A stretch of DNA of 64,000 bases, from IMG/VR virus record IMGVR_UViG_3300023223_001973, positions 1-64,000 of that record. One strand, 5' to 3'. Under the pieces are notes generated by a model that was not told where the DNA came from, searched no databases, and saw nothing but the letters and a program-made list of their open reading frames with translations. The DNA is from a virus. A program made the translations under genes and the position numbers. Shown here piece by piece: positions 1 to 28,819 of the stretch. Numbering within the stretch: position 1 is the first letter of the stretch; each line of letters begins with the position of its first letter.

Positions 1-105
1 GAGTTGAATAGGGAGTCTCCTGCGTATGGTGAAGATGCTTTCTTACAACTGCTTGAGAAGTATGGTATTCACGGTAACGCTGTGATGGGTATGTTGACTG
101 GATAG
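1..105 (+). CDS. 3' end of a hypothetical gene truncated by the window edge
   Basis: Frame 1 is open from base 1 to TAG at 103-105, followed by GGAG and the next start. Confidence 0.5.
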   Translation, partial: ELNRESPAYGEDAFLQLLEKYGIHGNAVMGMLTG

Positions 106-113
106 GAGACGCT

Positions 114-896
114 GTGACCCCTGTGCATGAGCGTTGGAAGAATACAGGCCTTGTTGACAAGTATGTCGTCTCTAAGAAGGACGGCTCACCTGTCGCAGAG
201 GATGCTGAGTACTTCGTTCTCCGACTGGATGAGGCTTGCAAGGACCATAGGCATGTGATTGCGTGCCGTGCTGCGGCCTTCCTGTATGCTTCTATGATCC
301 GACAGCATCTTCCCTTGCTGTCCTCTGATATCATCCAGAAGATCAAGGTTCTGACTAAGGAACATTCAGAGGTTAACTGGTCCTCTATCTCGCCTGCAGA
401 GGTCTACCTTGAAACTGGACGACCCTCCAGTATGACCCATGAGGAATGGCTGATTACCATTGTGAATATCAAGGTTGCTATTGATGCTATCCGACAGGTG
501 CAGATTGATCTTCTGTCTGGCTTTCGTGAGTTTGTTGAGAAGAAGTTGGAGCTGGTCAAGTCTAAGGGCGACCCGCCAAGTGCTCTTGCTGTTGAAGGGT
601 TGCTCAATGACATGATTCAAGAGGTGGATGACACTGGCGCAACCTTAGGCCTCTGCATCTCTGTTCATGGCAAAGCTCCAGAGAAGGACCCTCTGACTGA
701 TATCTTCGAGACTGAGGATAAGCTCATTGCGGCCATAGGGCCTGTTAACCTCATTGGACATCTTCAATCTCATTGTTTGGCAACTGCTGATCATCCCACT
801 GAAGAGACCAAAGCTGAGACTGAGAAGTGGGAACGGACTGCCAAGATGTTGTATGAGGTTCACAACCAGTTGAAGGAGATCTGGGACCCTAGCTGA
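114..896 (+). CDS. Hypothetical phage protein
   Basis: 260-aa ORF with GGAG RBS; its stop TGA is the first three bases of the TGAACCT promoter box. Confidence 0.7.
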   Translation: MTPVHERWKNTGLVDKYVVSKKDGSPVAEDAEYFVLRLDEACKDHRHVIACRAAAFLYASMIRQHLPLLSSDIIQKIKVLTKEHSEVNWSSISPAEVYLETGRPSSMTHEEWLITIVNIKVAIDAIRQVQIDLLSGFREFVEKKLELVKSKGDPPSALAVEGLLNDMIQEVDDTGATLGLCISVHGKAPEKDPLTDIFETEDKLIAAIGPVNLIGHLQSHCLATADHPTEETKAETEKWERTAKMLYEVHNQLKEIWDPS

Positions 897-918
897 ACCT
901 AACACTCTCTTCTACGTA
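894..918 (+). promoter_or_regulatory. Phage ECF-type promoter TGAACCT-N14-CGTA
   Basis: TGAACCT 894-900, CGTA 915-918; same motif and spacing recur at seven other sites. Confidence 0.8.
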
Positions 919-955
919 CTATTGTCTAGTAGGCCTTTAGACAAAGGAGAGAGTC

Positions 956-1210
956 ATGGCATCAGTAAGAACCCAGGTTGCGGAAGCCGTTGCGGAGCGC
1001 ACATCGGACAACGGGAACTTCGAAGAGTACCGTTGCAAGTTCGATTGGGAGATCACGGACCAGCGTCTCCTGGCTCGTTTTATCGCGAAGGTGGAAGCTC
1101 ACGAACTGGAACCAAATCAGGTTCGTTGGTATGTGAAGCGCCTGAACTTCCGTAACGTCTTTATCCCAGACTCCGTTATTGACATGCTCCGCTCCGGCGT
1201 ATATGTCTAG
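956..1210 (+). CDS. Small hypothetical protein upstream of the RAMP gene
   Basis: 84 aa, AAGGAG RBS, first gene after the 894 promoter. Confidence 0.7.
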   Translation: MASVRTQVAEAVAERTSDNGNFEEYRCKFDWEITDQRLLARFIAKVEAHELEPNQVRWYVKRLNFRNVFIPDSVIDMLRSGVYV

Positions 1211-1239
1211 GCAATGCTGCCTAGACAAGGAGTTGGGTC

Positions 1240-1992
1240 ATGACGTATACACAGCGGGACCTCGATAAGCTTATGTCTAAGCGTCGGGGTCGGGCAATCG
1301 TCAAGTGTCGTGCTGTCCGCAAGATTGCGGGTGGCCAGCCTGCCGGTGACAAGGCTCTTGCAGCCTTCGTCAAGTATCACCTCGACCTGGATCCGGAAAG
1401 CAACGAAGGTAAGTCCGCTATCGCTCGGATCAAGAACGAGGAGATTGGGGAGAGGGATACCGGTACTCCCGAAGGCGAGCTGGACAACAAGGAAGTGTAT
1501 CAGGTCAACGTCATTCGACGGAATATGAATGGTCCCTTCCTCCTGGAACACCAGATCAAGGCCATGCTGAAGCAGTCTGCCAGCCGCCTTGGCTACTTTG
1601 TCAAGAAGCGTGGCTCCAAGGGTGACATGGCTGAGCTGGGCACAGTCCGCGCTCATGGAACCAGTCTTCAGTTTGCTCTCCGTCCTTGGGAAATTCACTT
1701 GCGCAAGAACGGGCAAAGTGCTCCCACCTCATACGACCAGATCACCGGTTGTGTGAGCACCACTCAGGGCAAGAAGTCCATCATGCACCATACCGAAGTG
1801 GCGGATGAGGGCTCCGAGTTTGCCTTCGAGTTCGACTGGATTCCTGACAAGCTGGGCAAGAATGCCATGCTGGAGATCATTGCTGCTGCCACGCAGATCG
1901 GCATTGGTTCCTGTCAGAGCTTGGGCTACGGGAAGTTCGAGGTCGTGGAGCTGGATATTGACATGCCTGTTAAGGTTAAGAAGGAGGCATAA
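1240..1992 (+). CDS. Stand-alone Cas7/Csm3-like RAMP-superfamily protein
   Basis: C-terminal G-rich loop IGIGSCQSLGYGKFEV, central 'FLLEHQIKAMLKQSA' helix (cf. P..S.KG.lR), 'TEVADEGSEFAFEF' strand; AAGGAG RBS. No other cas genes in the window. Confidence 0.8.
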   Translation: MTYTQRDLDKLMSKRRGRAIVKCRAVRKIAGGQPAGDKALAAFVKYHLDLDPESNEGKSAIARIKNEEIGERDTGTPEGELDNKEVYQVNVIRRNMNGPFLLEHQIKAMLKQSASRLGYFVKKRGSKGDMAELGTVRAHGTSLQFALRPWEIHLRKNGQSAPTSYDQITGCVSTTQGKKSIMHHTEVADEGSEFAFEFDWIPDKLGKNAMLEIIAAATQIGIGSCQSLGYGKFEVVELDIDMPVKVKKEA

Positions 1993-2630
1993 CTCGACCT
2001 TACGAAGCACAGCGGCCATGCATCATTCCACCGCGCGAGACGAAGCGGCATTGCGTCACAAGACTTGACATATCATGACGAAGAGGCAAAGCAACATGAT
2101 GCATGGCGTAACTAAGCGGCATGACAGGATGTAACTTAACCCAACGTAGAGGCTTAACCAGTCCAAGCTGGTCGGTACTGAACTAAGCGGCTATACAATG
2201 CACGTCTTTACGAAGCGGCGGGACCAGATAAGTCGTGACACTACCCGACGGAGTGGCAGAGCCTTACTCGACATTACTTTACGGAGTGGCAATGCAAGGC
2301 TGAGCAGTGCCGAGCGGCAGGACATAGCTCTACGCTACCACACGCAGAGGCACTACTGAATCATGCCTGACATTGCTTAACAAAGCGGCAGGACGCTACT
2401 CCACACGACGAAGTGGCATGACGCGACTCCACAGGACATGGCGGCTCGACAAGACCGAGCACTATAAGGCTGAACTGGACGAAACAGAGTGGCCAAGCCT
2501 GATGAATCTGTGCGACACAAAGCGAAGTGGCAAGACGGGATGGTACGCCACCTAACTGAACGCAGCGGCAAGTCAAAACAGGACGATACATTGCTGAGAG
2601 GCGAGACAAAACGGGACATTACGCCGCGGC
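1989..2630 (+). repeat. Pentamer-periodic array: 19 units of (NNN-RC)n closed by NNAGH-GGC; putative guide-RNA array
   Basis: Parsed by hand without gaps: 117 pentamers plus 19 GGC trimers = 642 nt; unit lengths 28/33/38/48; the 98 internal pentamers end in AC (60), GC (23), AT (8) or TC (7). Confidence 0.92.
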
Positions 2631-2635
2631 ATAGC

Positions 2636-2660
2636 TGAACCTAAAGACCTCCTCTACGTA
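2636..2660 (+). promoter_or_regulatory. Phage ECF-type promoter
   Basis: TGAACCT 2636-2642, N14, CGTA 2657-2660, directly after the array. Confidence 0.8.
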
Positions 2661-2680
2661 TTGTAAGTGAGGAGATTATT

Positions 2681-3037
2681 ATGAGTAAGGTTGCTGACAA
2701 ACTCCGGGTTATCAAGATCTATAATGATCATGGGATCTCTGAGCCTGGCGGTGTTTACATCTCCCGTAGATCACGAGGTCCCTGGAAACCACCTGCTTGG
2801 ATAGTTCACATTCAAGGTAAGAGCTTCAAGACTGCTGGTCGTGAGGATAATGGTGGTAGGGCCTTTCGTATTGAGGGCCGTGGAGATGTGAAGGACTGTC
2901 TCGCGAGAGCTATTGATTGGTGTCAGCAGAACCTTGGGACGTATTACTTTGTGAAGTCACCTTTCGGTGGCGGAAACATGGTTCAGGAGTCCTTCCTCAA
3001 GAAGGCCATCAAGAAAGCTGATGATGTGCTTGCCTGA
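2681..3037 (+). CDS. Hypothetical protein
   Basis: 118 aa, GAGGAG RBS, downstream of promoter. Confidence 0.7.
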   Translation: MSKVADKLRVIKIYNDHGISEPGGVYISRRSRGPWKPPAWIVHIQGKSFKTAGREDNGGRAFRIEGRGDVKDCLARAIDWCQQNLGTYYFVKSPFGGGNMVQESFLKKAIKKADDVLA

Positions 3038-3168
3038 TGACCTTCCAACTCTGGCCCTTCCTCAGTGGGAACTGGAGATGCTTGAATTTCAGAAGAAGCT
3101 GAAAAAGGAAATGGATGCTTATTTCCGCTCTAAAATGATAGTTCCTGCTAAATACTTTGGAGGCCCTT

Positions 3169-3672
3169 ATGAAAGTAGTCGATCTGTTAGAACTGATCAA
3201 GGACGTGGACCTGGAGGCAGAGGTCCCGAGCGAGATCATCGACAAACTGACCCAGGTACCTGATGGCTCACCGCCTCGCCCTGTCCGTGGTAAGCTTCCC
3301 AACCGTCGCAATGGAATAACCCAGAAGGTATCTGTTGCTCAGCAGACAGTCTATCTCCGATCTGGACTGTATGAAGATGGTTCTCTGGGTGAGATATTCA
3401 TTGACATGTCCAGACAGGGTGCTGGTTATCGTTCCATTATGGGCTGCTTTGCTATCGCGGTAAGTCTTGGTTTGCAGCATGGTGTACCGCTTGAACGCTT
3501 TGTTAATGCTTTTGTATGGACAAGATTCGATCCGCAAGGCCAAGTTGCTGGCCATCCTTCTATAAAACACTGTACGTCAGTGGTGGACTATATCTTTAGA
3601 GACTTGGCTTATCACCATCTTGGTGATGAGGATATGGCTAAGTATGATCCTAAGGAGCACTCTTACCTATAA
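3169..3672 (+). CDS. Stand-alone class II ribonucleotide reductase (NrdJ) C-terminal TSCPD-like domain
   Basis: [14 protein letters not shown]...[14 protein letters not shown]...[15 protein letters not shown]...[11 protein letters not shown]; GGAGG RBS before ATG 3169. Confidence 0.8.
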
Positions 3673-3687
3673 TGTCACGTAACCGAC

Positions 3688-3999
3688 TTGATCCCAGAGT
3701 CTACAGAGGTAAACGTACTACCGGTGAGGACTCATGCCGGGCATGCTCTGGTTCAGGTATCCAGCATCACGATCGGGCAGTCTGTCGCGTATGTAAAGGT
3801 AGTGGAAAGGCACAAGATGACAGACAAGGAAGAAGTAAAGGTCACTGATAAGCAGTTCTGCGATCCCAAGGGCACTGCTTTTAATAGGGAGGCAGGCCAC
3901 TTGCATGAACTGTGTGGAACTCCGATGAAACCTCTGTTCATGGGTAATGCTCTGTATGGACACCGGTGTCCCAAGTGTAATGTTGAGGTTGAGGCATGA
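3688..3999 (+). CDS. Small hypothetical protein, possible Zn ribbon
   Basis: LCGTPM...HRCPKC; start uncertain. Confidence 0.5.
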   Translation: MIPESTEVNVLPVRTHAGHALVQVSSITIGQSVAYVKVVERHKMTDKEEVKVTDKQFCDPKGTAFNREAGHLHELCGTPMKPLFMGNALYGHRCPKCNVEVEA

Positions 4000-4181
4000 T
4001 TAAGAAATCCCCACGTAATTCATATAAGAAGCGTGTACAAGACTTATTTCCTGAGTCAAAGGCCTGGAAGGTGGGAAGGAAGAAGTGGAGGATTCTTACC
4101 TCTCAGGGTCATGTCATTGGTGAACACATTTCTCCTGGTAAGGCTTGGGAGAACGCGGCTAAGCTATTTAAGTTGACATAA
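3996..4181 (+). CDS. Small basic hypothetical protein
   Basis: ATGA overlap with previous gene, GAGG RBS. Confidence 0.55.
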   Translation: MIKKSPRNSYKKRVQDLFPESKAWKVGRKKWRILTSQGHVIGEHISPGKAWENAAKLFKLT

Positions 4182-4186
4182 CTTAT

Positions 4187-4200
4187 TGCTCTTTGACAAT
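4187..4200 (+). promoter_or_regulatory. boxA-like antitermination site
   Basis: TGCTCTTTGACAAT vs rrn boxA TGCTCTTTAACA; intergenic. Confidence 0.55.
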
Positions 4201-4240
4201 TTAGTCAACCCTAACCTGCCTTGAAAGGGGGTGATGTGCA

Positions 4241-4513
4241 ATGGCAGACAAACGTTTGGCGAAGCCCGGCGACGTGGTTGTATACCACGATCCAAAGGGT
4301 GTGCCGCATAACGCTCTGGTAACCATAGCGTGGACTGAGACCTGCATCAACCTGGTGCTTGTATCGGATGATGAGGATAAGCAGGATACGTATGGTCGTC
4401 AGATTGAGCGGCAAACTTCGATGGCTCACGTTGATGAGTCAACGGTGCATGGATTCTACTGGCGTTGGCCCGATGAGGAACCCAACCCATACGTGCCGCC
4501 GAAGTCGAAGTAG
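4241..4513 (+). CDS. Hypothetical phage protein
   Basis: 90 aa, AAGGGGGT RBS. Confidence 0.7.
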   Translation: MADKRLAKPGDVVVYHDPKGVPHNALVTIAWTETCINLVLVSDDEDKQDTYGRQIERQTSMAHVDESTVHGFYWRWPDEEPNPYVPPKSK

Positions 4514-4586
4514 CCAGCAAGCGGCTTGGAACCTTAACGGAACCTGTTAGCCCGCAATCTGCCATAAGGGTTGACTGAGAGTTTAG

Positions 4587-4704
4587 AGTGGCTGCTGACG
4601 GACCTGATCAGTCCGTGCAACTGGCTGTATAATTCGAGTGGGGGAAGCGCCCACAGGGTTGCTCCAATCGTGGAGATATTGAGCACACGGTCCAGCCAGC
4701 CACT
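4587..4704 (+). ncRNA. Putative structured ncRNA of unknown class
   Basis: Terminal helix AGTGGCTG/CAGCCACT; internal hairpins ACGGAC/GTCCGT, GTGGG/CCCAC, CTCCA/TGGAG. Confidence 0.5.
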
Positions 4705-4718
4705 TGTTCTTTGACAAT
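4705..4718 (+). promoter_or_regulatory. boxA-like antitermination site
   Basis: TGTTCTTTGACAAT, ending 2 nt before the tmRNA 5' end. Confidence 0.55.
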
Positions 4719-4720
4719 AT

Positions 4721-5070
4721 GGGGGTGAATTGGATTCGACTGGCTGTATGAGCTATCGTGCTGCGTGTCGTGGTTGGTCGGTTGGCCACGTTAAAAGCCG
4801 TCCAAAAGCTTATCTGCGGAATATACCGCACGTCTGCGCTTGGTCTCCGGACCACGTGCCGTCGCTGCCTGAGCGATGTACCCAAGAAGGCACTTCGTCA
4901 AGGTGTCCCGCTGAAGACGGTTTTAGTTGGTGGGAGGACAGGTGGGGAAAGACCCACTGCCGAACCTGCGTCACGAGGGCCGGGCAATAAACGGAAACAG
5001 TGACTATGCATGTAGACGCCGGTAGTTTGGCAGTTCCAGCACGTGGGTTCGACTCCCACCACCTCCACCA
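4721..5070 (+). ncRNA. ssrA: tmRNA; tag reading frame AEYTARLRLVSGPRAVAA* (4816-4872)
   Basis: 5' GGGGGTGAATTGGATTCGAC; 3' T-arm GTGGGTTCGACTCCCAC then CACCTCC-ACCA; acceptor stem with G3.U Ala determinant; internal ORF ends in AVAA. Confidence 0.95.
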
Positions 5071-5077
5071 AATTAAG

Positions 5078-5169
5078 TCCCTGCTGCGGAGCGTCTTAAG
5101 TGGCGCATGGGAGAGCTCCTCGTGCACAGAGGAGAGGCAACCGGAAGATGGGTATCCGGCCAGTGGGGA
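5078..5169 (+). ncRNA. Putative cloverleaf-like RNA between tmRNA and tRNA-Asn
   Basis: Closing helix TCCCTGCTG/CAGTGGGGA and three hairpins (GCGTC/GGCGC, CTCCTC/GAGGAG, CCGGA/TCCGG); no TTCGA loop or CCA. Confidence 0.5.
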
Positions 5170-5175
5170 ATCTAT

Positions 5176-5250
5176 TGACCTGTAGCTCAATGGTAGAGCG
5201 CCTGGCTGTTAACCAGGAAGTTGGAGGTTCGAGCCCTCCCGGGTCAGCCA
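5176..5250 (+). tRNA. tRNA-Asn (GTT)
   Basis: TGACCTG/CGGGTCA acceptor stem, D-arm AGCTCAATGGTAGAGC, anticodon arm CCTGG-CTGTTAA-CCAGG, GGTTCGAG, encoded CCA. Confidence 0.95.
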
Positions 5251-5260
5251 AAGGAACGAC

Positions 5261-5521
5261 ATGGACACCATGAAGAAGGGGAACATGCAGGACCAGGCTA
5301 TGGGAACCTGGTTTGTGGATTCCACTGGTACTGTCTTTCTGAAGTGTCCCTTGTGTGGTAGGGTTGGTAGTCTTCGATCTCCTGGGGATAAGGAGGGTCA
5401 TGAGATTGACTCTTACGGTGTAGTCTCTCCTTCTTTAATATGTCCTCGTAAGGGTTGTCCATTTCATACTGAGATTCAGCTTGAGGATTGGAAAGATGAA
5501 GCGCACAAGCCGTTGTCCTGA
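5261..5521 (+). CDS. Small putative Zn-binding protein
   Basis: CPLC...H...CPRKGCPFH. Confidence 0.6.
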   Translation: MDTMKKGNMQDQAMGTWFVDSTGTVFLKCPLCGRVGSLRSPGDKEGHEIDSYGVVSPSLICPRKGCPFHTEIQLEDWKDEAHKPLS

Positions 5522-5726
5522 GATTAATGAGCGTAGGCTTCGAGCTCGCTTGGAAGGTGAGATTAATCAGGCTTGCAAGGAAGGTCTTATTACTGATGGT
5601 AAGATATTTAATGTTGACTGCTCTCACCCTCATGGCGACAGTGCTCACTTTGCTCTCAAGCCTTCTAAGGGTGGTGAAACTTTACCCGCGGCTATGCGTC
5701 TCTTCGAGGCTGGGTCAAGAGAGTGA
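5496..5726 (+). CDS. Hypothetical protein
   Basis: Short ORF filling the gap; ATG 5496. Confidence 0.4.
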   Translation: MKRTSRCPEINERRLRARLEGEINQACKEGLITDGKIFNVDCSHPHGDSAHFALKPSKGGETLPAAMRLFEAGSRE

Positions 5727-5729
5727 GAC

Positions 5730-6326
5730 GTGGTTACTAGCTCCCTAAGTGAGGTTGGGTTTGCTATAGGGAATGGAGAGACAAGGAATGGCGTCGATCT
5801 CGGACATATCTCTCAGTATGGTGTTATCTACGGCTGTAATGCGCTATATCGCGACTTCTCTCCTGACATCCTAGTCTCTGTTGATCGTCTTATGATTGGC
5901 GAGATCATGGAGTCTGATTACTCGGGCCGCATGATCTATCGATCTCGTGAGGAGAAAGGTTGGTTGCACTCTACCTGGGAAGATAGGTCATATATTGATA
6001 AAGGGTGGTCAGCAGGCCCGACTGCTGTATGGTTGATGTGTAAGCGACATGTGAACATTAGGCGTATATTCCTAGTAGGATTTGATTTGGATAGTACACC
6101 CGGATCAGGTGGGAAAGATCATCAGAACAACATCTACAAAGGAACCGCCAATTATCGTACGGCTGATGATCCTAATGCTCCTTCAAGGAACTGGGAGAAG
6201 CAGCTCTTGCAGGTGTTTAAGGAGTTTGGGCATATCCAGTTTGTAAGGGTTGGTGGGGAGGATCCACCAATACCCTGGCGACAGTTCTCTAACGTGTATC
6301 AAAACGACCTTGATATCTTGCCTTAG
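5730..6326 (+). CDS. GT29/Maf-like (DUF115-type) nucleotide-sugar transferase-fold protein
   Basis: AIGNGETR, IYGCNALYRDFSPDILVSVD, SAGPTA, IFLVGFD motifs. Confidence 0.65.
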   Translation: MVTSSLSEVGFAIGNGETRNGVDLGHISQYGVIYGCNALYRDFSPDILVSVDRLMIGEIMESDYSGRMIYRSREEKGWLHSTWEDRSYIDKGWSAGPTAVWLMCKRHVNIRRIFLVGFDLDSTPGSGGKDHQNNIYKGTANYRTADDPNAPSRNWEKQLLQVFKEFGHIQFVRVGGEDPPIPWRQFSNVYQNDLDILP

Positions 6327-7200
6327 GGGGTGTATTATTATCGTTCAGGTGCCTACCGGGATTGGAGACTTCTCTTGGGTCTATAGCAAACTTGCTTCTC
6401 TTGAGATTCCAGTGACAATAGAGGTCTGTGCCGGAGGACCTGCTCGCCTTCAACCTATAGCTGAGCTGCTTCCTCGCATTGAGAGGATGTATACTGGAAA
6501 TATAGGTTATGGTGAGCTAGCTGTGAAGCAGCTGCCTGCCGAGACAACTCGTGCTCAGTTGATGGCCTGGCCCGCAGGTGCACCTATTCCACTCTCATGC
6601 AATACCCACCTGGAGAATGGTAATCGTGTGGAGACCTGGCTCCCAGATATTCCTACCTATCACCATTACCCTGTTCTAGTCTCTCAGCAGGACATTGACC
6701 AGGCCAAGGCTCTTGTTCCCTTCAAGGACTATGTCTGTATCTATGCCTCAAGTAAGGCTACTTGTGCTACCTGGACGGGGTGGATGGGTCCTCAGTGGGT
6801 CGAGTTTATGAATCTATTCCGGGATAAGATAGCACCTATGAGCTTTGTTCTGATTGGTGCACAATGGGATGTGGATCTTGGAGTAGAGGTTCAACAGTGT
6901 GCTGCTGTTGCTCAGATACCCTTTGTTAATCTAGTGAACCTAACCAGGTTGGGTACTGCCTTAAAGATTATCAAGAACTCTCATTATATGGTGTCATTCC
7001 CGTCTGGGATGGGCATTATGTCTCATGTTATTCGTCAGCCCTGCACAATGTTCTATCCTTCTCCTCTTGTCAAGATGCTTCGTACTTTTGTATCTCCAGA
7101 GTCAGCTGCTCTGAATAGGTTTCATGAGACTATTTTCTGCCCACCTGCAGAGCTTATACAATGGCTGCTTGATGTTTATAAGATTAAGGAGCATCTATGA
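6250..7200 (+). CDS. GT9-like (heptosyltransferase-fold) glycosyltransferase; true start probably near 6337
   Basis: IIVQVPTGIGD N-terminal motif; NLVNLTRLGTALKIIKNSHYMVSFPSGMGIMS C-terminal GT-B motif. Confidence 0.7.
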   Translation: MVGRIHQYPGDSSLTCIKTTLISCLRGCIIIVQVPTGIGDFSWVYSKLASLEIPVTIEVCAGGPARLQPIAELLPRIERMYTGNIGYGELAVKQLPAETTRAQLMAWPAGAPIPLSCNTHLENGNRVETWLPDIPTYHHYPVLVSQQDIDQAKALVPFKDYVCIYASSKATCATWTGWMGPQWVEFMNLFRDKIAPMSFVLIGAQWDVDLGVEVQQCAAVAQIPFVNLVNLTRLGTALKIIKNSHYMVSFPSGMGIMSHVIRQPCTMFYPSPLVKMLRTFVSPESAALNRFHETIFCPPAELIQWLLDVYKIKEHL

Positions 7201-8051
7201 GGCCTGACTGCGTGAAGGTAGGCTATGGTGATCCACAGCATGGAATTGCTCTTTCTGTAGTGGTCCTATTTTGTGACTTTGATGATGAACAGACGAGGGC
7301 CTCGGCAACTGCTTGCCTACTGTCTGTTCGCGAGACTGCCCCCGTGGATTGTGAGATCATCTGTGTACTGAATAACGTCTCGACTGAGCTTCTTGCCTTC
7401 GTGGAACATGCTGCTGATCGTGATGGTCGCATTGTATTGATTAATCTTAGTGTAAACTTGGGCGTGGTGGCTAAGAATCTGGGTTATGAGATTGCCCAAG
7501 GTAAGCTCATCTTCTCCATCGATGGTGACGTTCTAGTTAGGGATAGGAAGGCCTTTACTGATTGTGTTACCTTTATGGAGAGCCGTAGACATATTCATAC
7601 AGCTCTGATAGGTCCATGTGGTGGTATCTTGGACAAGGAACGATGGACTGATGAAGACTGGCCTATTGCTAAGTGGGAAGAGGGCTCTAATGCCTTTGGG
7701 TATGATGATCCTATCGACTTTGGTGGTGAGGTTGCTGATCTTCATGGCATGAAGGTAGATGCCATACCCAGCTTGTTCTGGTGCTTTCGCAAGGAGGTCA
7801 TGGAGGAGGTAGGATCTCTGGACTGGAGGTTTGGTCCCTTTGTAGGATCTGACTCTGATTTTTGCTTTCGTGTTAAGGAGGCAGGATACGATATATGCCT
7901 TGTGAGAGTTCCTATTACCCATTATGGAGGTGGTGCGAGTACGCACAAGGCCTTCAAGAAGGACATTGATTTCCTAAGGGGAAGTCATATCAAGCTGCTC
8001 TACGATCTGTGGTATGAGAAGTTTGATGTGATAAGTGAGGGAGGCAAATGA
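7197..8051 (+). CDS. GT2 family glycosyltransferase
   Basis: LSVVVL...EIICVLNNVS...NLGVVAKNLG...FSIDGD (DxD)...DSDFCFRVKEAGY. Confidence 0.85.
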   Translation: MRPDCVKVGYGDPQHGIALSVVVLFCDFDDEQTRASATACLLSVRETAPVDCEIICVLNNVSTELLAFVEHAADRDGRIVLINLSVNLGVVAKNLGYEIAQGKLIFSIDGDVLVRDRKAFTDCVTFMESRRHIHTALIGPCGGILDKERWTDEDWPIAKWEEGSNAFGYDDPIDFGGEVADLHGMKVDAIPSLFWCFRKEVMEEVGSLDWRFGPFVGSDSDFCFRVKEAGYDICLVRVPITHYGGGASTHKAFKKDIDFLRGSHIKLLYDLWYEKFDVISEGGK

Positions 8052-15027: not shown

Positions 15028-15234
15028 ATGGCTCCTGAGTTGAAGGAAGAGACCTTTAATACTGGTGATGTTGTACGAGTCCGTGAAGGGGCTGTTCATA
15101 TCAAACCTCAGTTCCATAGTACTGAGGGTACTGTGATAAGATGGACCCATGATCACTGGTATATTGTGAATATAGCTTACTCAGTAACACTGTTACGAGC
15201 AAGCGAATTACAACTTGTACGTAGAGCAGGCTGA
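15028..15234 (+). CDS. Small KOW/SH3-like protein
   Basis: FNTGDVVRV...EGTVIR...WYIV...SELQLV; AAGGAGG RBS. Confidence 0.55.
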   Translation: MAPELKEETFNTGDVVRVREGAVHIKPQFHSTEGTVIRWTHDHWYIVNIAYSVTLLRASELQLVRRAG

Positions 15235-15256
15235 ACCTTAGCCTCTGCCTTACGTA
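15232..15256 (+). promoter_or_regulatory. Phage ECF-type promoter
   Basis: TGAACCT 15232-15238, CGTA 15253-15256. Confidence 0.8.
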
Positions 15257-15278
15257 TAGGTAGTAAGGAGGACATACA

Positions 15279-27670: not shown

Positions 27671-28819
27671 ATGCCAGAGGCACCTAAGGTGTTTGATCCA
27701 TCATCGTTCTTCGGCGGACAGGCCGGAGCTGCTCCTCCTGCGACTCCCTCCGCGGCCCCAGTTGCTGCACCGGCACCCATTGCCGCTCCTGTAGCACCCA
27801 TACCGCAGACAGCCCCTGCTCCGGCAGCTAATGTAGCTCAACCGGGGTTTGGGGTCCCTGCGGCTCCTACTCCACCAGCTCCTGCGGTTCCGACTCCTGT
27901 AGCGGCCCCGGTGGCTGCTGTTCCTGCTACCCCAGCACCACCTGTTCCCGCAGCCCCAGTGGTACCTGCTGCCCCTGCTCAGGCAGTACCTGCTGCTGTT
28001 GCACCACCCCCGGTTGCGGCGGTACCTGTCGCTGCTGCCCCAGTTGTCGCCCCTGTTCAAGCTGCCCCAGTTGTCGCCCCTGTTCAAGCTGCCCCAGTTG
28101 TCGCTGCCGTACCCGCGGCTGCTGCTGATGCCCCCTCGTTTGCTAAGACCCATGCTATTACCTTTGGTGACAAGCTCTCCCGTTACCCTGTACCACGATT
28201 CCGGGGGATCAAGGGATTCACCAAGCGTATAGGCATCCTGAACGTGACTAAGTGGTATGCTGTTAAGACCCACTATGAGCAGGGGATTGGCTACTACTTC
28301 TGCTTTGGCACCGTCTGTTGTGAGTCTAACGATCCTTCAGTAAGGTACTTGGCTCCTATGGTGGCCTACGACACTGATAAGGATGGAAACATCGTATCCC
28401 CCAACTTCGAGATCCAGTACATGGCTCTCTCGGATCAGTACTATGACCATCTGCAGTTGATACACCGGAATTATCCTCTGGATGAGATAGATATGCTTGC
28501 CATGTGTGCTGATGAGACGTATCAGAAGATGGCTTACCAACCCGCTGGTGCTGCCTCTTGGAAGCAGAACGCTGAGTGGGGTAAGGCTATCGTGGAGAAG
28601 TACCAAGAGTTGGAGCCTAACATCATGCGTTGTCATGCTACTCGTTTGGGTAGAACCCCTGATGAGTGTGTCAAGGCTCTGGCTGCTCGTCGTAGCCGTG
28701 GTTCCAACCAGCCTACTCAGACGCAGCCTACTCCAACAGCCCAGGCTCCTGGTGTTGCTCAGTTTGATATGAACGCGTTCATGAATCAGCCGGGAGGCGA
28801 TGCAGCTAGGGGTCGGTAA
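27671..28819 (+). CDS. Putative single-stranded DNA-binding protein with long Pro/Ala-rich N-terminus
   Basis: HY...YYFCFGTVCC metal-site-like segment; sits before RuvC/RecA; ~155-aa PA-rich region. Confidence 0.55.
   Translation: MPEAPKVFDPSSFFGGQAGAAPPATPSAAPVAAPAPIAAPVAPIPQTAPAPAANVAQPGFGVPAAPTPPAPAVPTPVAAPVAAVPATPAPPVPAAPVVPAAPAQAVPAAVAPPPVAAVPVAAAPVVAPVQAAPVVAPVQAAPVVAAVPAAAADAPSFAKTHAITFGDKLSRYPVPRFRGIKGFTKRIGILNVTKWYAVKTHYEQGIGYYFCFGTVCCESNDPSVRYLAPMVAYDTDKDGNIVSPNFEIQYMALSDQYYDHLQLIHRNYPLDEIDMLAMCADETYQKMAYQPAGAASWKQNAEWGKAIVEKYQELEPNIMRCHATRLGRTPDECVKALAARRSRGSNQPTQTQPTPTAQAPGVAQFDMNAFMNQPGGDAARGR
28034..28104 (+). repeat. 27-nt coding tandem repeat (AAPVVAPVQ), 2.6 copies
   Basis: GCTGCCCCAGTTGTCGCCCCTGTTCAA twice plus a partial copy. 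Confidence 0.9.

What the first reader, a model, noticed from the sequence alone, without database searches (positions are those of the whole stretch)
1240..2630. Lone Cas7-like RAMP gene plus a pentamer-periodic array: candidate non-CRISPR RNA-guided system
Seen: the 642 nt from 1989 to 2630 parse without gaps into 19 units. Each unit has 4-8 internal pentamers NNN-RC, then NNAG(C/T/A), then GGC (e.g. 2418-2445 atgac gcgac tccac aggac atggc ggc). All 98 internal pentamers end in AC or a single-base variant (AC 60, GC 23, AT 8, TC 7), while the first three bases are free and no two units match. The adjacent protein has the RAMP C-terminal G-loop (GIGSCQSLGYGKF). No cas1/2/3/5/6 and no CRISPR repeat occur in the window. 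Known: Cas7-family RAMPs polymerise along guide RNA with a fixed nucleotide period. Inference: each unit is a guide; the fixed dinucleotide is the per-subunit handle and the variable triplet carries target information. From memory (unverified), this resembles recently reported viral RAMP systems with GGY/NN pentamer RNAs (VIPR), but the register here is 3 variable + 2 fixed with an explicit delimiter, so it may be a distinct class.
Basis: partly seen in the sequence, partly recalled or inferred. Interest (0 to 1): 0.97.

Follow-up and report, generated by a model that had tools for sequence, protein, structure and literature searches.

The report
Phage VIPR guide-RNA system, non-canonical repeats
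A phage gene for a Cas7-like RAMP protein is followed by 19 short pentamer-periodic guide-like units, and this is a divergent member of the VIPR RNA-guided systems described in 2026 preprints, not a new class.

Summary
Window 1989-2630 parses into 19 units, each of length 5k+3. Internal pentamers read NNN-R-Y: position 5 is Y in 98 of 98, and position 4 is R in 91 of 98. Each unit ends with NNAGN and then GGC.

The adjacent 250-aa protein (1240-1992) folds with high confidence as a Cas7-type RAMP. Its homologues carry the same punctuated array, on the gene's strand, in 34 of 45 non-redundant loci.

It is not a new class. VIPR (Vipr RAMP plus pentamer vrRNAs) was published in 2026. A later preprint reports non-canonical GAC/NN and CAC/NN VIPR arrays. 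Profile comparisons link this family to canonical Vipr, including phage SUSP1, through an intermediate clade.

The best reading is a stand-alone VIPR locus in a tailed-phage genome. The handle is xAC instead of GGY, and many short guides are concatenated without 3' tails. A handle-only GGC triplet separates the guides.

Three things were not settled:
- Whether the third "variable" base pairs with the target.
- Whether the units are cut apart.
- What the guides target. No self-target was found, and six gapped scans of viral contigs gave no exact hit.

The punctuated architecture may match the published "staggered arrays". I could not check the figure.

The parts
893..925 (+). Candidate phage promoter or regulatory motif (GCTGAACCTAA-N9-CTACGTA) ahead of the operon
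   Evidence: The same motif recurs at 2635 and, with variation, at 15231. Each copy lies 20-40 nt upstream of an RBS and ATG. No sigma-70-type promoter was found in 800-2800. Its function is inferred.
956..1210 (+). 84-aa ORF of unknown function, first gene of the apparent operon; not a conserved partner
   Evidence: ORF list. No Pfam or PHROG match. No relative in any of the homologous loci. The ESM Atlas gave only sub-threshold hits.
1240..1992 (+). vipr-like gene: a 250-aa Cas7-type RAMP with its G-loop at residues 221-233
   Evidence: AF2 pLDDT 91.7, pTM 0.84. Foldseek PDB: 198 hits at E<=1e-3, and all listed are CRISPR Cas7-family RAMP subunits or effector complexes (Cmr/Csm, type VII, type IV Csf). 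VIA Z 11.9 and 11.8 to Cmr-beta and Csm3. Viral RAMPs in BFVD at E 4e-13. hhalign A1~A2 100%, A2~canonical Vipr 95.6%.
1989..2630 (+). Array of 19 vrRNA-like units. Each is (NN-xRY) x 4-8, then NN-AGN, then a handle-only GGC. Unit ends: 2016, 2049, 2087, 2120, 2153, 2191, 2219, 2257, 2290, 2318, 2351, 2389, 2417, 2445, 2493, 2531, 2569, 2602, 2630
   Evidence: Parse and composition. Significance and non-coding status. Unique in the genome. No stable RNA fold, z -1.5. The first unit overlaps the vipr stop codon (TAA at 1990-1992), and the end of the coding sequence (GGAGGC, 1983-1988) resembles a delimiter.
2635..2667 (+). Second copy of the promoter-like motif, starting 5 nt after the last GGC; it marks the end of the unit and the start of the next gene (2681-3037)

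Best explanation
This is a stand-alone VIPR system of a tailed phage: a divergent Vipr (a Cas7-like RAMP) with its cognate vrRNA array.

Shown here: the RAMP fold, remote homology to canonical Vipr, and conserved co-location and co-orientation of the array with the gene.

Inferred by analogy with the SUSP1 VIPR structures:
- The array is transcribed with the gene from the + strand.
- One Vipr protomer binds each pentamer.
- Each protomer sequesters the x-A-C handle, the counterpart of G1-G2-Y3.
- The following NN is presented for gapped pairing with double-stranded DNA of competing mobile elements, which silences them.

The clade differs from canonical type II VIPR in four ways:
- The handle is R-Y (mostly AC), with a loose first base.
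- Guides are short, 4-8 repeats here and 3-13 across the family.
- There is no structured 3' tail.
- Many guides abut one another. They are separated only where an AGC handle is followed directly by a handle-only GGC, which shifts the register by +3.

I take this junction to be the filament stop or start, or the processing site. That is an inference.
For: - Fold.
- Homology chain: A1~A2 hhalign 100%, E 5e-44. A2~A4 (canonical Vipr family including SUSP1) 95.6%, E 1e-8. A1~A4 shows a weak match over the same region, E 5e-4.
- SUSP1 locus re-found, with YNNGG runs on the gene strand.
- Arrays with the same 5k+3 logic occur in 34 of 45 non-redundant homologous loci, always on the gene's strand and mostly 10-130 nt from it. 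Of the 11 loci without one, 8 have under 300 nt of downstream flank.
- Family-wide over 2,499 pentamers: position 4 A81/G15, position 5 C81/T18.
- Between homologous units, positions 4-5 almost never change (0-3%), while positions 1-3 change at 13-25%.
- Phage context: portal, prohead protease and major head protein; IMG/VR virus record.
- No Cas1 or CRISPR. No self-target, as reported for VIPR.
- Literature: VIPR definition and variants, mechanism, GAC/NN and CAC/NN variants.
Against: - Direct A1-to-canonical similarity is weak (33% probability; 4.7% against SUSP1 alone; phmmer gave nothing). Membership therefore rests on a transitive link.
- No transcription, processing, binding or target evidence exists for this locus.
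- The canonical defining motif GGY and the 3' tail are absent.
- No conserved accessory (vap) gene.
- One homologue with full flanks (L003) has no array within 4 kb.
Confidence: 0.85

Rival explanations
1. A distinct, non-VIPR class of RAMP-guided system. The whole variable triplet pairs with the target (3 variable + 2 fixed), and each delimited unit is an independent guide.
For: - Position 3 changes as fast as positions 1-2 between homologous and paralogous units.
- Its composition differs between loci with identical or near-identical G-loops, for example G 55% versus C 41%. So position 3 does not look protein-specified.
- On the G-loop alignment, the residues that read G1 and G2 in SUSP1 (D177, W178) are S224 and C225 here.
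Against: - The homology chain to canonical Vipr.
- YNNNG-type repeats with the same 3+2 register are already counted as VIPR.
- GAC/NN and CAC/NN arrays have been published as divergent VIPR.
- Position 3 is compositionally biased (G 40% family-wide).
- Period-3 scans, which include the contiguous-triplet case, gave no hit.
Confidence: 0.08
2. The array is one long RNA, or a DNA-level element, that binds the RAMP without guiding it. Examples are a scaffold, a decoy or sponge, or an autoregulatory 3' UTR. The units would then not be separate guides.
For: - The array is fused to the gene's stop codon and has no internal promoters or terminators.
- No target was found anywhere.
Against: - Positions 1-3 are hypervariable, while the handle and punctuation are conserved across 39 loci. 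That is the signature of programmable guides.
- Related arrays share the units nearest the gene and differ in the units farther from it, as guide repertoires do.
- Solo and decoy vrRNAs in the literature are still guides.
Confidence: 0.05
3. The periodic region is translated as a repeat peptide, or is a decaying remnant without function.
For: Short ORFs of 49-82 aa overlap it.
Against: - Period 5 with +3 shifts cannot hold a reading frame.
- There are 6-12 stops in every frame.
- The architecture is conserved at 33-60% protein identity across dozens of loci.
Confidence: 0.01

Closest known systems
VIPR systems (Vipr + vrRNA), type II exemplars from phage SUSP1 and a P. fulva prophage; bioRxiv 10.64898/2026.04.26.720920 and 10.64898/2026.04.26.720927
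   Same: - A phage-encoded minimal RAMP with RRM core, G-loop and thumb.
- An adjacent same-strand array with 5-nt period.
- A conserved pyrimidine followed by variable bases.
- No cas genes or CRISPR.
- No self-targeting.
   Different: - The handle is xAC (R-Y) rather than GGY.
- Guides have 4-8 repeats rather than 9-16.
- There is no ~40-nt tail or pseudoknot.
- 19 guides sit back to back rather than as separate ~100-nt vrRNAs.
- The protein is 250 aa rather than ~190 aa, with an extra N-terminal helical region.
- No vap gene.
- Sequence similarity is detectable only through an intermediate clade.
Non-canonical VIPR arrays (GAC/NN, CAC/NN and others) reported in bioRxiv 10.64898/2026.10.21.760802, and the YNNNG/NNNGG/NNNNG variants and 'staggered arrays' of the first VIPR paper
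   Same: - The same dominant pentamers: family members here are G-rich or C-rich at position 3, which gives GAC or CAC.
- A Vipr-like fold lies next to the array.
- Tail-less abutting vrRNAs are mentioned for 'staggered' arrays.
   Different: - The text I could read does not describe the 5k+3 punctuation (AGC followed by a handle-only GGC) or the short unit length.
- The window's own array is the most relaxed at position 3 (G 37, A 27, T 27, C 10%).
- I could not see the figures or tables, so identity with these clusters is probable but not verified.
Class 1 CRISPR Cas7 backbone subunits (Csm3, Cmr4, type VII Cas7, Csf2)
   Same: Best structural matches (Z 10-12). Periodic protomer-per-segment binding of a guide, with thumb-induced base flipping.
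   Different: No CRISPR repeats, no Cas5, Cas6, Cas1 or Cas10 context, 5-nt rather than 6-nt period, and the periodicity is written into the guide sequence itself.

Membership tests
VIPR system | Protein with RAMP fold (RRM core, G-loop, thumb) | tested here: met
   AF2 pLDDT 91.7. Foldseek top hits are Cas7-type RAMPs at E 3e-8. VIA Z 11.9. G-loop at residues 221-233.
VIPR system | Homology to the Vipr protein family | tested here: met
   Transitive: A1~A2 100%, E 5e-44; A2~A4 (canonical, including SUSP1) 95.6%, E 1e-8. The direct A1~A4 comparison gives only 33%, E 5e-4.
VIPR system | Adjacent non-coding array of tandem pentamers on the gene's strand | tested here: met
   34 of 45 homologous loci have one.
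VIPR system | GGY/NN repeat consensus | tested here: not met
   The repeat is NN-x-R-Y with AC dominant. The authors allow 'a related consensus' (YNNNG and others), and GAC/NN and CAC/NN have been reported.
VIPR system | Conserved structured 3' tail after the repeat tract (type II) | tested here: not met
   Units abut directly, with only AGN-GGC between them. No significant fold. No Rfam hit. Tail-less architectures exist in other VIPR types.
VIPR system | Accessory vap gene | tested here: not met
   No neighbour is conserved across the family. Stand-alone vipr genes are described in the VIPR paper.
VIPR system | Viral or proviral location without cas genes or a CRISPR array | tested here: met
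   Portal, protease and major head protein. IMG/VR virus record. No Cas1. No CRISPR-like repeats.
VIPR system | vrRNA expression, co-purification with Vipr, and DNA targeting by the 1-nt skip rule | not testable with these tools
Target searches gave nothing.
Hammerhead-interspersed VIPR arrays | Ribozymes between vrRNAs | tested here: not met
   Rfam E-value scan of 1-8000 found only a tmRNA and a tRNA.
Staggered VIPR arrays (fig. S18 of the VIPR paper) | Successive vrRNAs abut, the end of one marking the start of the next | tested here: inconclusive
   The architecture is compatible, but only the legend is available. No figure or sequence could be compared.
CRISPR-Cas class 1 effector | CRISPR repeat-spacer array plus Cas5, Cas6, large subunit or adaptation genes | tested here: not met
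   Only Cas1 was searched as a family.

The most novel reading that the evidence does not exclude
In this clade the code is different from canonical VIPR. Only two bases (R-Y) are sequestered per protomer, and all three variable bases read the target. The AGC-GGC junction would be a minimal 'repeat' at which the RAMP itself, or a host RNase, cuts a multi-guide precursor into 28-48-nt guides. That would make it a repeat-spacer-like array intermediate between VIPR and CRISPR.
Probability: 0.2. Interest if true: 0.7.

Novelty: new member of a known kind. Interest (0 to 1): 0.42.

Why it matters
VIPR is a very recent class of programmable DNA-binding system. This locus and about 40 relatives collected here document a clade with three notable features:
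- A different handle, AC instead of GG.
- Much shorter guides.
- A tail-less array of up to about 20 guides, punctuated by a 3-nt register shift.

If confirmed experimentally, the clade would show how handle specificity and guide length can vary. It could also show how multi-guide arrays are delimited without structured tails, and whether a three-base-per-protomer code exists. All of this bears on engineering VIPR and on the proposed VIPR-to-CRISPR transition. As a discovery of kind, it is already covered by 2026 preprints.

Tried and rejected
- **Self-targeting.** All 19 guides were run against the 99.7-kb genome under seven rules (2 or 3 variable bases, target period 2-5). Results were no better than shuffled guides.
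- **Cross-targeting.** 170-272 guides from all loci were run against 350-410 kb of held DNA. There was no enrichment for period 2, 3 or 5. A small excess at period 4 (246 versus 209 +/- 12) was scattered over many loci with no pattern.
- **Gapped exact-match scans of IMG/VR.** The window's longest guide at periods 3 and 4, and four long guides from relatives at period 3, all gave 0 hits. Only exact matches can be found this way.
- **Codon-likeness of the triplets.** Sense-frame stops occur at the expected rate. The apparent depletions fit TA avoidance.
- **GC of position 3 versus locus GC.** The correlation is weak.
- **G-loop residues versus position-3 preference.** No covariation.
- **Conserved neighbour (vap).** None found.
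- **Direct sequence matches.** Pfam gave only a sub-threshold Cas6_C hit. PHROGs gave none. The PDB sequence profile gave none. The phage collection gave none by DNA or protein.
- **Tools unavailable.** Supplementary tables of the VIPR paper are not held.

Full report
**Observation**

I re-parsed window 1989-2630. It splits without gaps into 19 units of 28-48 nt, every one of length 5k+3. The 98 internal pentamers have a purine at position 4 in 91 cases (A68, G23, T7). They have a pyrimidine at position 5 in all 98 (C90, T8).

Each unit ends with NNAGN and then GGC (19 of 19). Positions 1 and 2 are close to uniform. Position 3 is mildly biased (G 37%, C 10%).

The pattern is not chance. P(98/98 Y) is about 2e-31. 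Shuffles of the array give essentially no units. My unit caller finds units nowhere else in the 99.7-kb genome and none on the minus strand. Lag-5 autocorrelation singles out this region. Every reading frame has 6-12 stops.

Units 13 and 14 are 85% alike. The first unit overlaps the stop codon of the upstream gene. The gene's last bases (GGAGGC) look like a delimiter.

**The protein**

ORF 1240-1992 (250 aa) has no significant Pfam or PHROG match. With an alignment of 38 homologues, AlphaFold2 gives pLDDT 91.7 and pTM 0.84.

- Foldseek against the PDB returns 198 hits at E<=1e-3. All listed hits are CRISPR Cas7-family RAMP subunits or effector complexes: Cmr/Csm (type III), type VII and type IV Csf.
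- An independent aligner gives Z 11.9 and 11.8 to a type III-B Cmr-beta subunit (6s6b_I) and Csm3. The 28 best entries are all CRISPR RAMPs.
- In the viral structure library the best hits are phage RAMP proteins (E 4e-13).

The RAMP assignment is therefore solid.

**Relatives**

Sequence searches found 51 close homologues and 175 clusters at 50% identity. I fetched 4 viral, 46 metagenomic and 1 genomic locus.

- A caller for 'delimiter, 5k+3 spacing, at least 75% R-Y pentamers' finds arrays in 39 sequences, 38 fetched loci plus the window's own genome, 503 units in all.
- Called units lie on the gene's strand. A stricter first pass found one isolated minus-strand unit in total.
- Among 45 non-redundant loci, 22 have the array downstream, 10 upstream and 2 on both sides. 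The array usually lies 10-130 nt from the gene.
- Of the 11 loci without a called array, 8 have under 300 nt of downstream flank.
- Family-wide over 2,499 pentamers, position 4 is A81/G15 and position 5 is C81/T18. The last pentamer is nnAGC followed by GGC. Units hold 3-13 pentamers, with a mode of 5-6.
- Some sub-clades use CTGCGGC or GGGCGGC as the junction.
- No neighbouring protein is conserved with the gene.

**What is known**

VIPR systems were described in April 2026. They consist of a phage-encoded ancestral RAMP (Vipr) with vrRNAs made of 9-16 YNNGG repeats and a structured 3' tail. One protomer binds per pentamer. GGY is flipped into the protein, and NN pairs with DNA while every third target base is skipped.

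The authors list seven types, alternative repeats (NNNGG, YNNNG, NNNNG), hammerhead-interspersed arrays, and 'staggered' arrays in which one vrRNA ends where the next starts.

An October 2026 preprint reports 21 clusters of non-canonical period-5 arrays beside Vipr-like folds. It names GAC/NN and CAC/NN. In my loci, position 3 is G-rich in some lineages (up to 64%) and C-rich in others (up to 52%). These are the same GAC and CAC patterns.

**Membership**

- I located the SUSP1 VIPR locus. I then built a canonical Vipr alignment, A4, from a canonical vipr gene found in locus L054, its homologues, and SUSP1.
- This family (A1) matches a more distant clade (A2) at 100% probability, E 5e-44.
- A2 matches canonical Vipr at 95.6%, E 1e-8.
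- A1 against canonical directly is weak: 33%, E 5e-4, over the same region.
- A2-type loci carry NNNCC pentamers punctuated by nnCGC plus GAC, the same 5k+3 logic with other letters. In L054 such a system sits beside a canonical one.
- The window is phage: portal, prohead protease, major head protein and DNA ligase, in an IMG/VR virus record.
- There is no Cas1, no CRISPR and no ribozyme.

I therefore file the locus as a divergent VIPR system. The canonical GGY consensus, the tail and a vap gene are all absent.

**How it probably works**

By analogy, the operon is promoter-like motif at 893, orf84, vipr, array, with a second copy of the motif at 2635. It gives an RNA on which Vipr polymerises with a 5-nt step.

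In the canonical register the unit reads GGC-NN-(xAC-NN)k-AGN, and the next unit starts with GGC. The +3 shift arises because an AGC handle is followed directly by a handle-only GGC, with no NN between them. I infer that this junction ends or starts a filament, or is the cut site. The array RNA has no significant structure (z -1.5).

On the G-loop alignment, the SUSP1 residues that read G1 and G2 (D177, W178) are S224 and C225 here. This fits the relaxed first base and the A at the second. That alignment has low confidence.

**Two or three informative bases?**

- Position 3 changes as often as positions 1 and 2 between homologous or paralogous units (13-25%, against 0-3% for positions 4-5).
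- The composition of position 3 differs between loci with identical G-loops. So it does not look protein-specified.
- It is nevertheless biased, and published analyses treat it as part of the handle.

Target data would decide this, and I found none. There was no self-target, no enrichment among held loci, and no exact hit in six gapped scans of viral contigs.

**Verdict**

The claim of a separate class is not supported. The locus is a new member of a recently described kind. Its punctuated, tail-less, short-guide architecture and AC handle deserve experimental follow-up.

Noticed in passing
window 4721-5250: A tmRNA gene (Rfam 108.7 bits; tag peptide AEYTARLRLVSGPRAVAA) and a tRNA-Asn(GTT) lie among phage genes, 2 kb from the VIPR locus. 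The record is classed 'provirus' by IMG/VR, so this could be a phage-borne tmRNA or an ssrA integration site.
   Followed up: partly
window 893-925, 2635-2667, 15231-15263 (also about 93189 of the genome): Repeated motif GCTGAACCT(A/T)A-N9-CT(A/T)ACGTA lies 20-40 nt upstream of an RBS and ATG. A CT-rich stretch in it can pair with the downstream GGAG RBS. It is a candidate phage promoter or translational control element.
   Followed up: partly
L054 800-3400: Two VIPR systems sit side by side on one viral contig. One is a canonical 191-aa Vipr (1661-2236) with several NNGGC arrays, each ending in an AAGACAAGGAC-like tail. The other is a 220-aa relative of the intermediate clade (2474-3136) with an NNNCC array punctuated by GCGAC.
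   Followed up: partly
L056-L069 (for example L057 3201-3581): The intermediate clade (A2) uses NNN-C-C pentamers with units ending nnCGC plus GAC. This is the same 5k+3 punctuation logic as here, written in different letters.
   Followed up: partly
L003 (same contig as L036), 163-kb viral contig: A vipr homologue (39% identity) has full 4-kb flanks but no period-5 array nearby. It may be an orphan protein or have a distant array.
   Followed up: no
L013 versus L017; L046 versus L048: Related arrays share their first units in the same order, with point changes and whole-pentamer indels, then differ completely at the far end. L046 holds several near-duplicate guides that differ at one or two variable bases.
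   Followed up: partly
window 28034-28104: A perfect 27-nt tandem repeat (2.6 copies) lies inside ORF 27671-28819.
   Followed up: no
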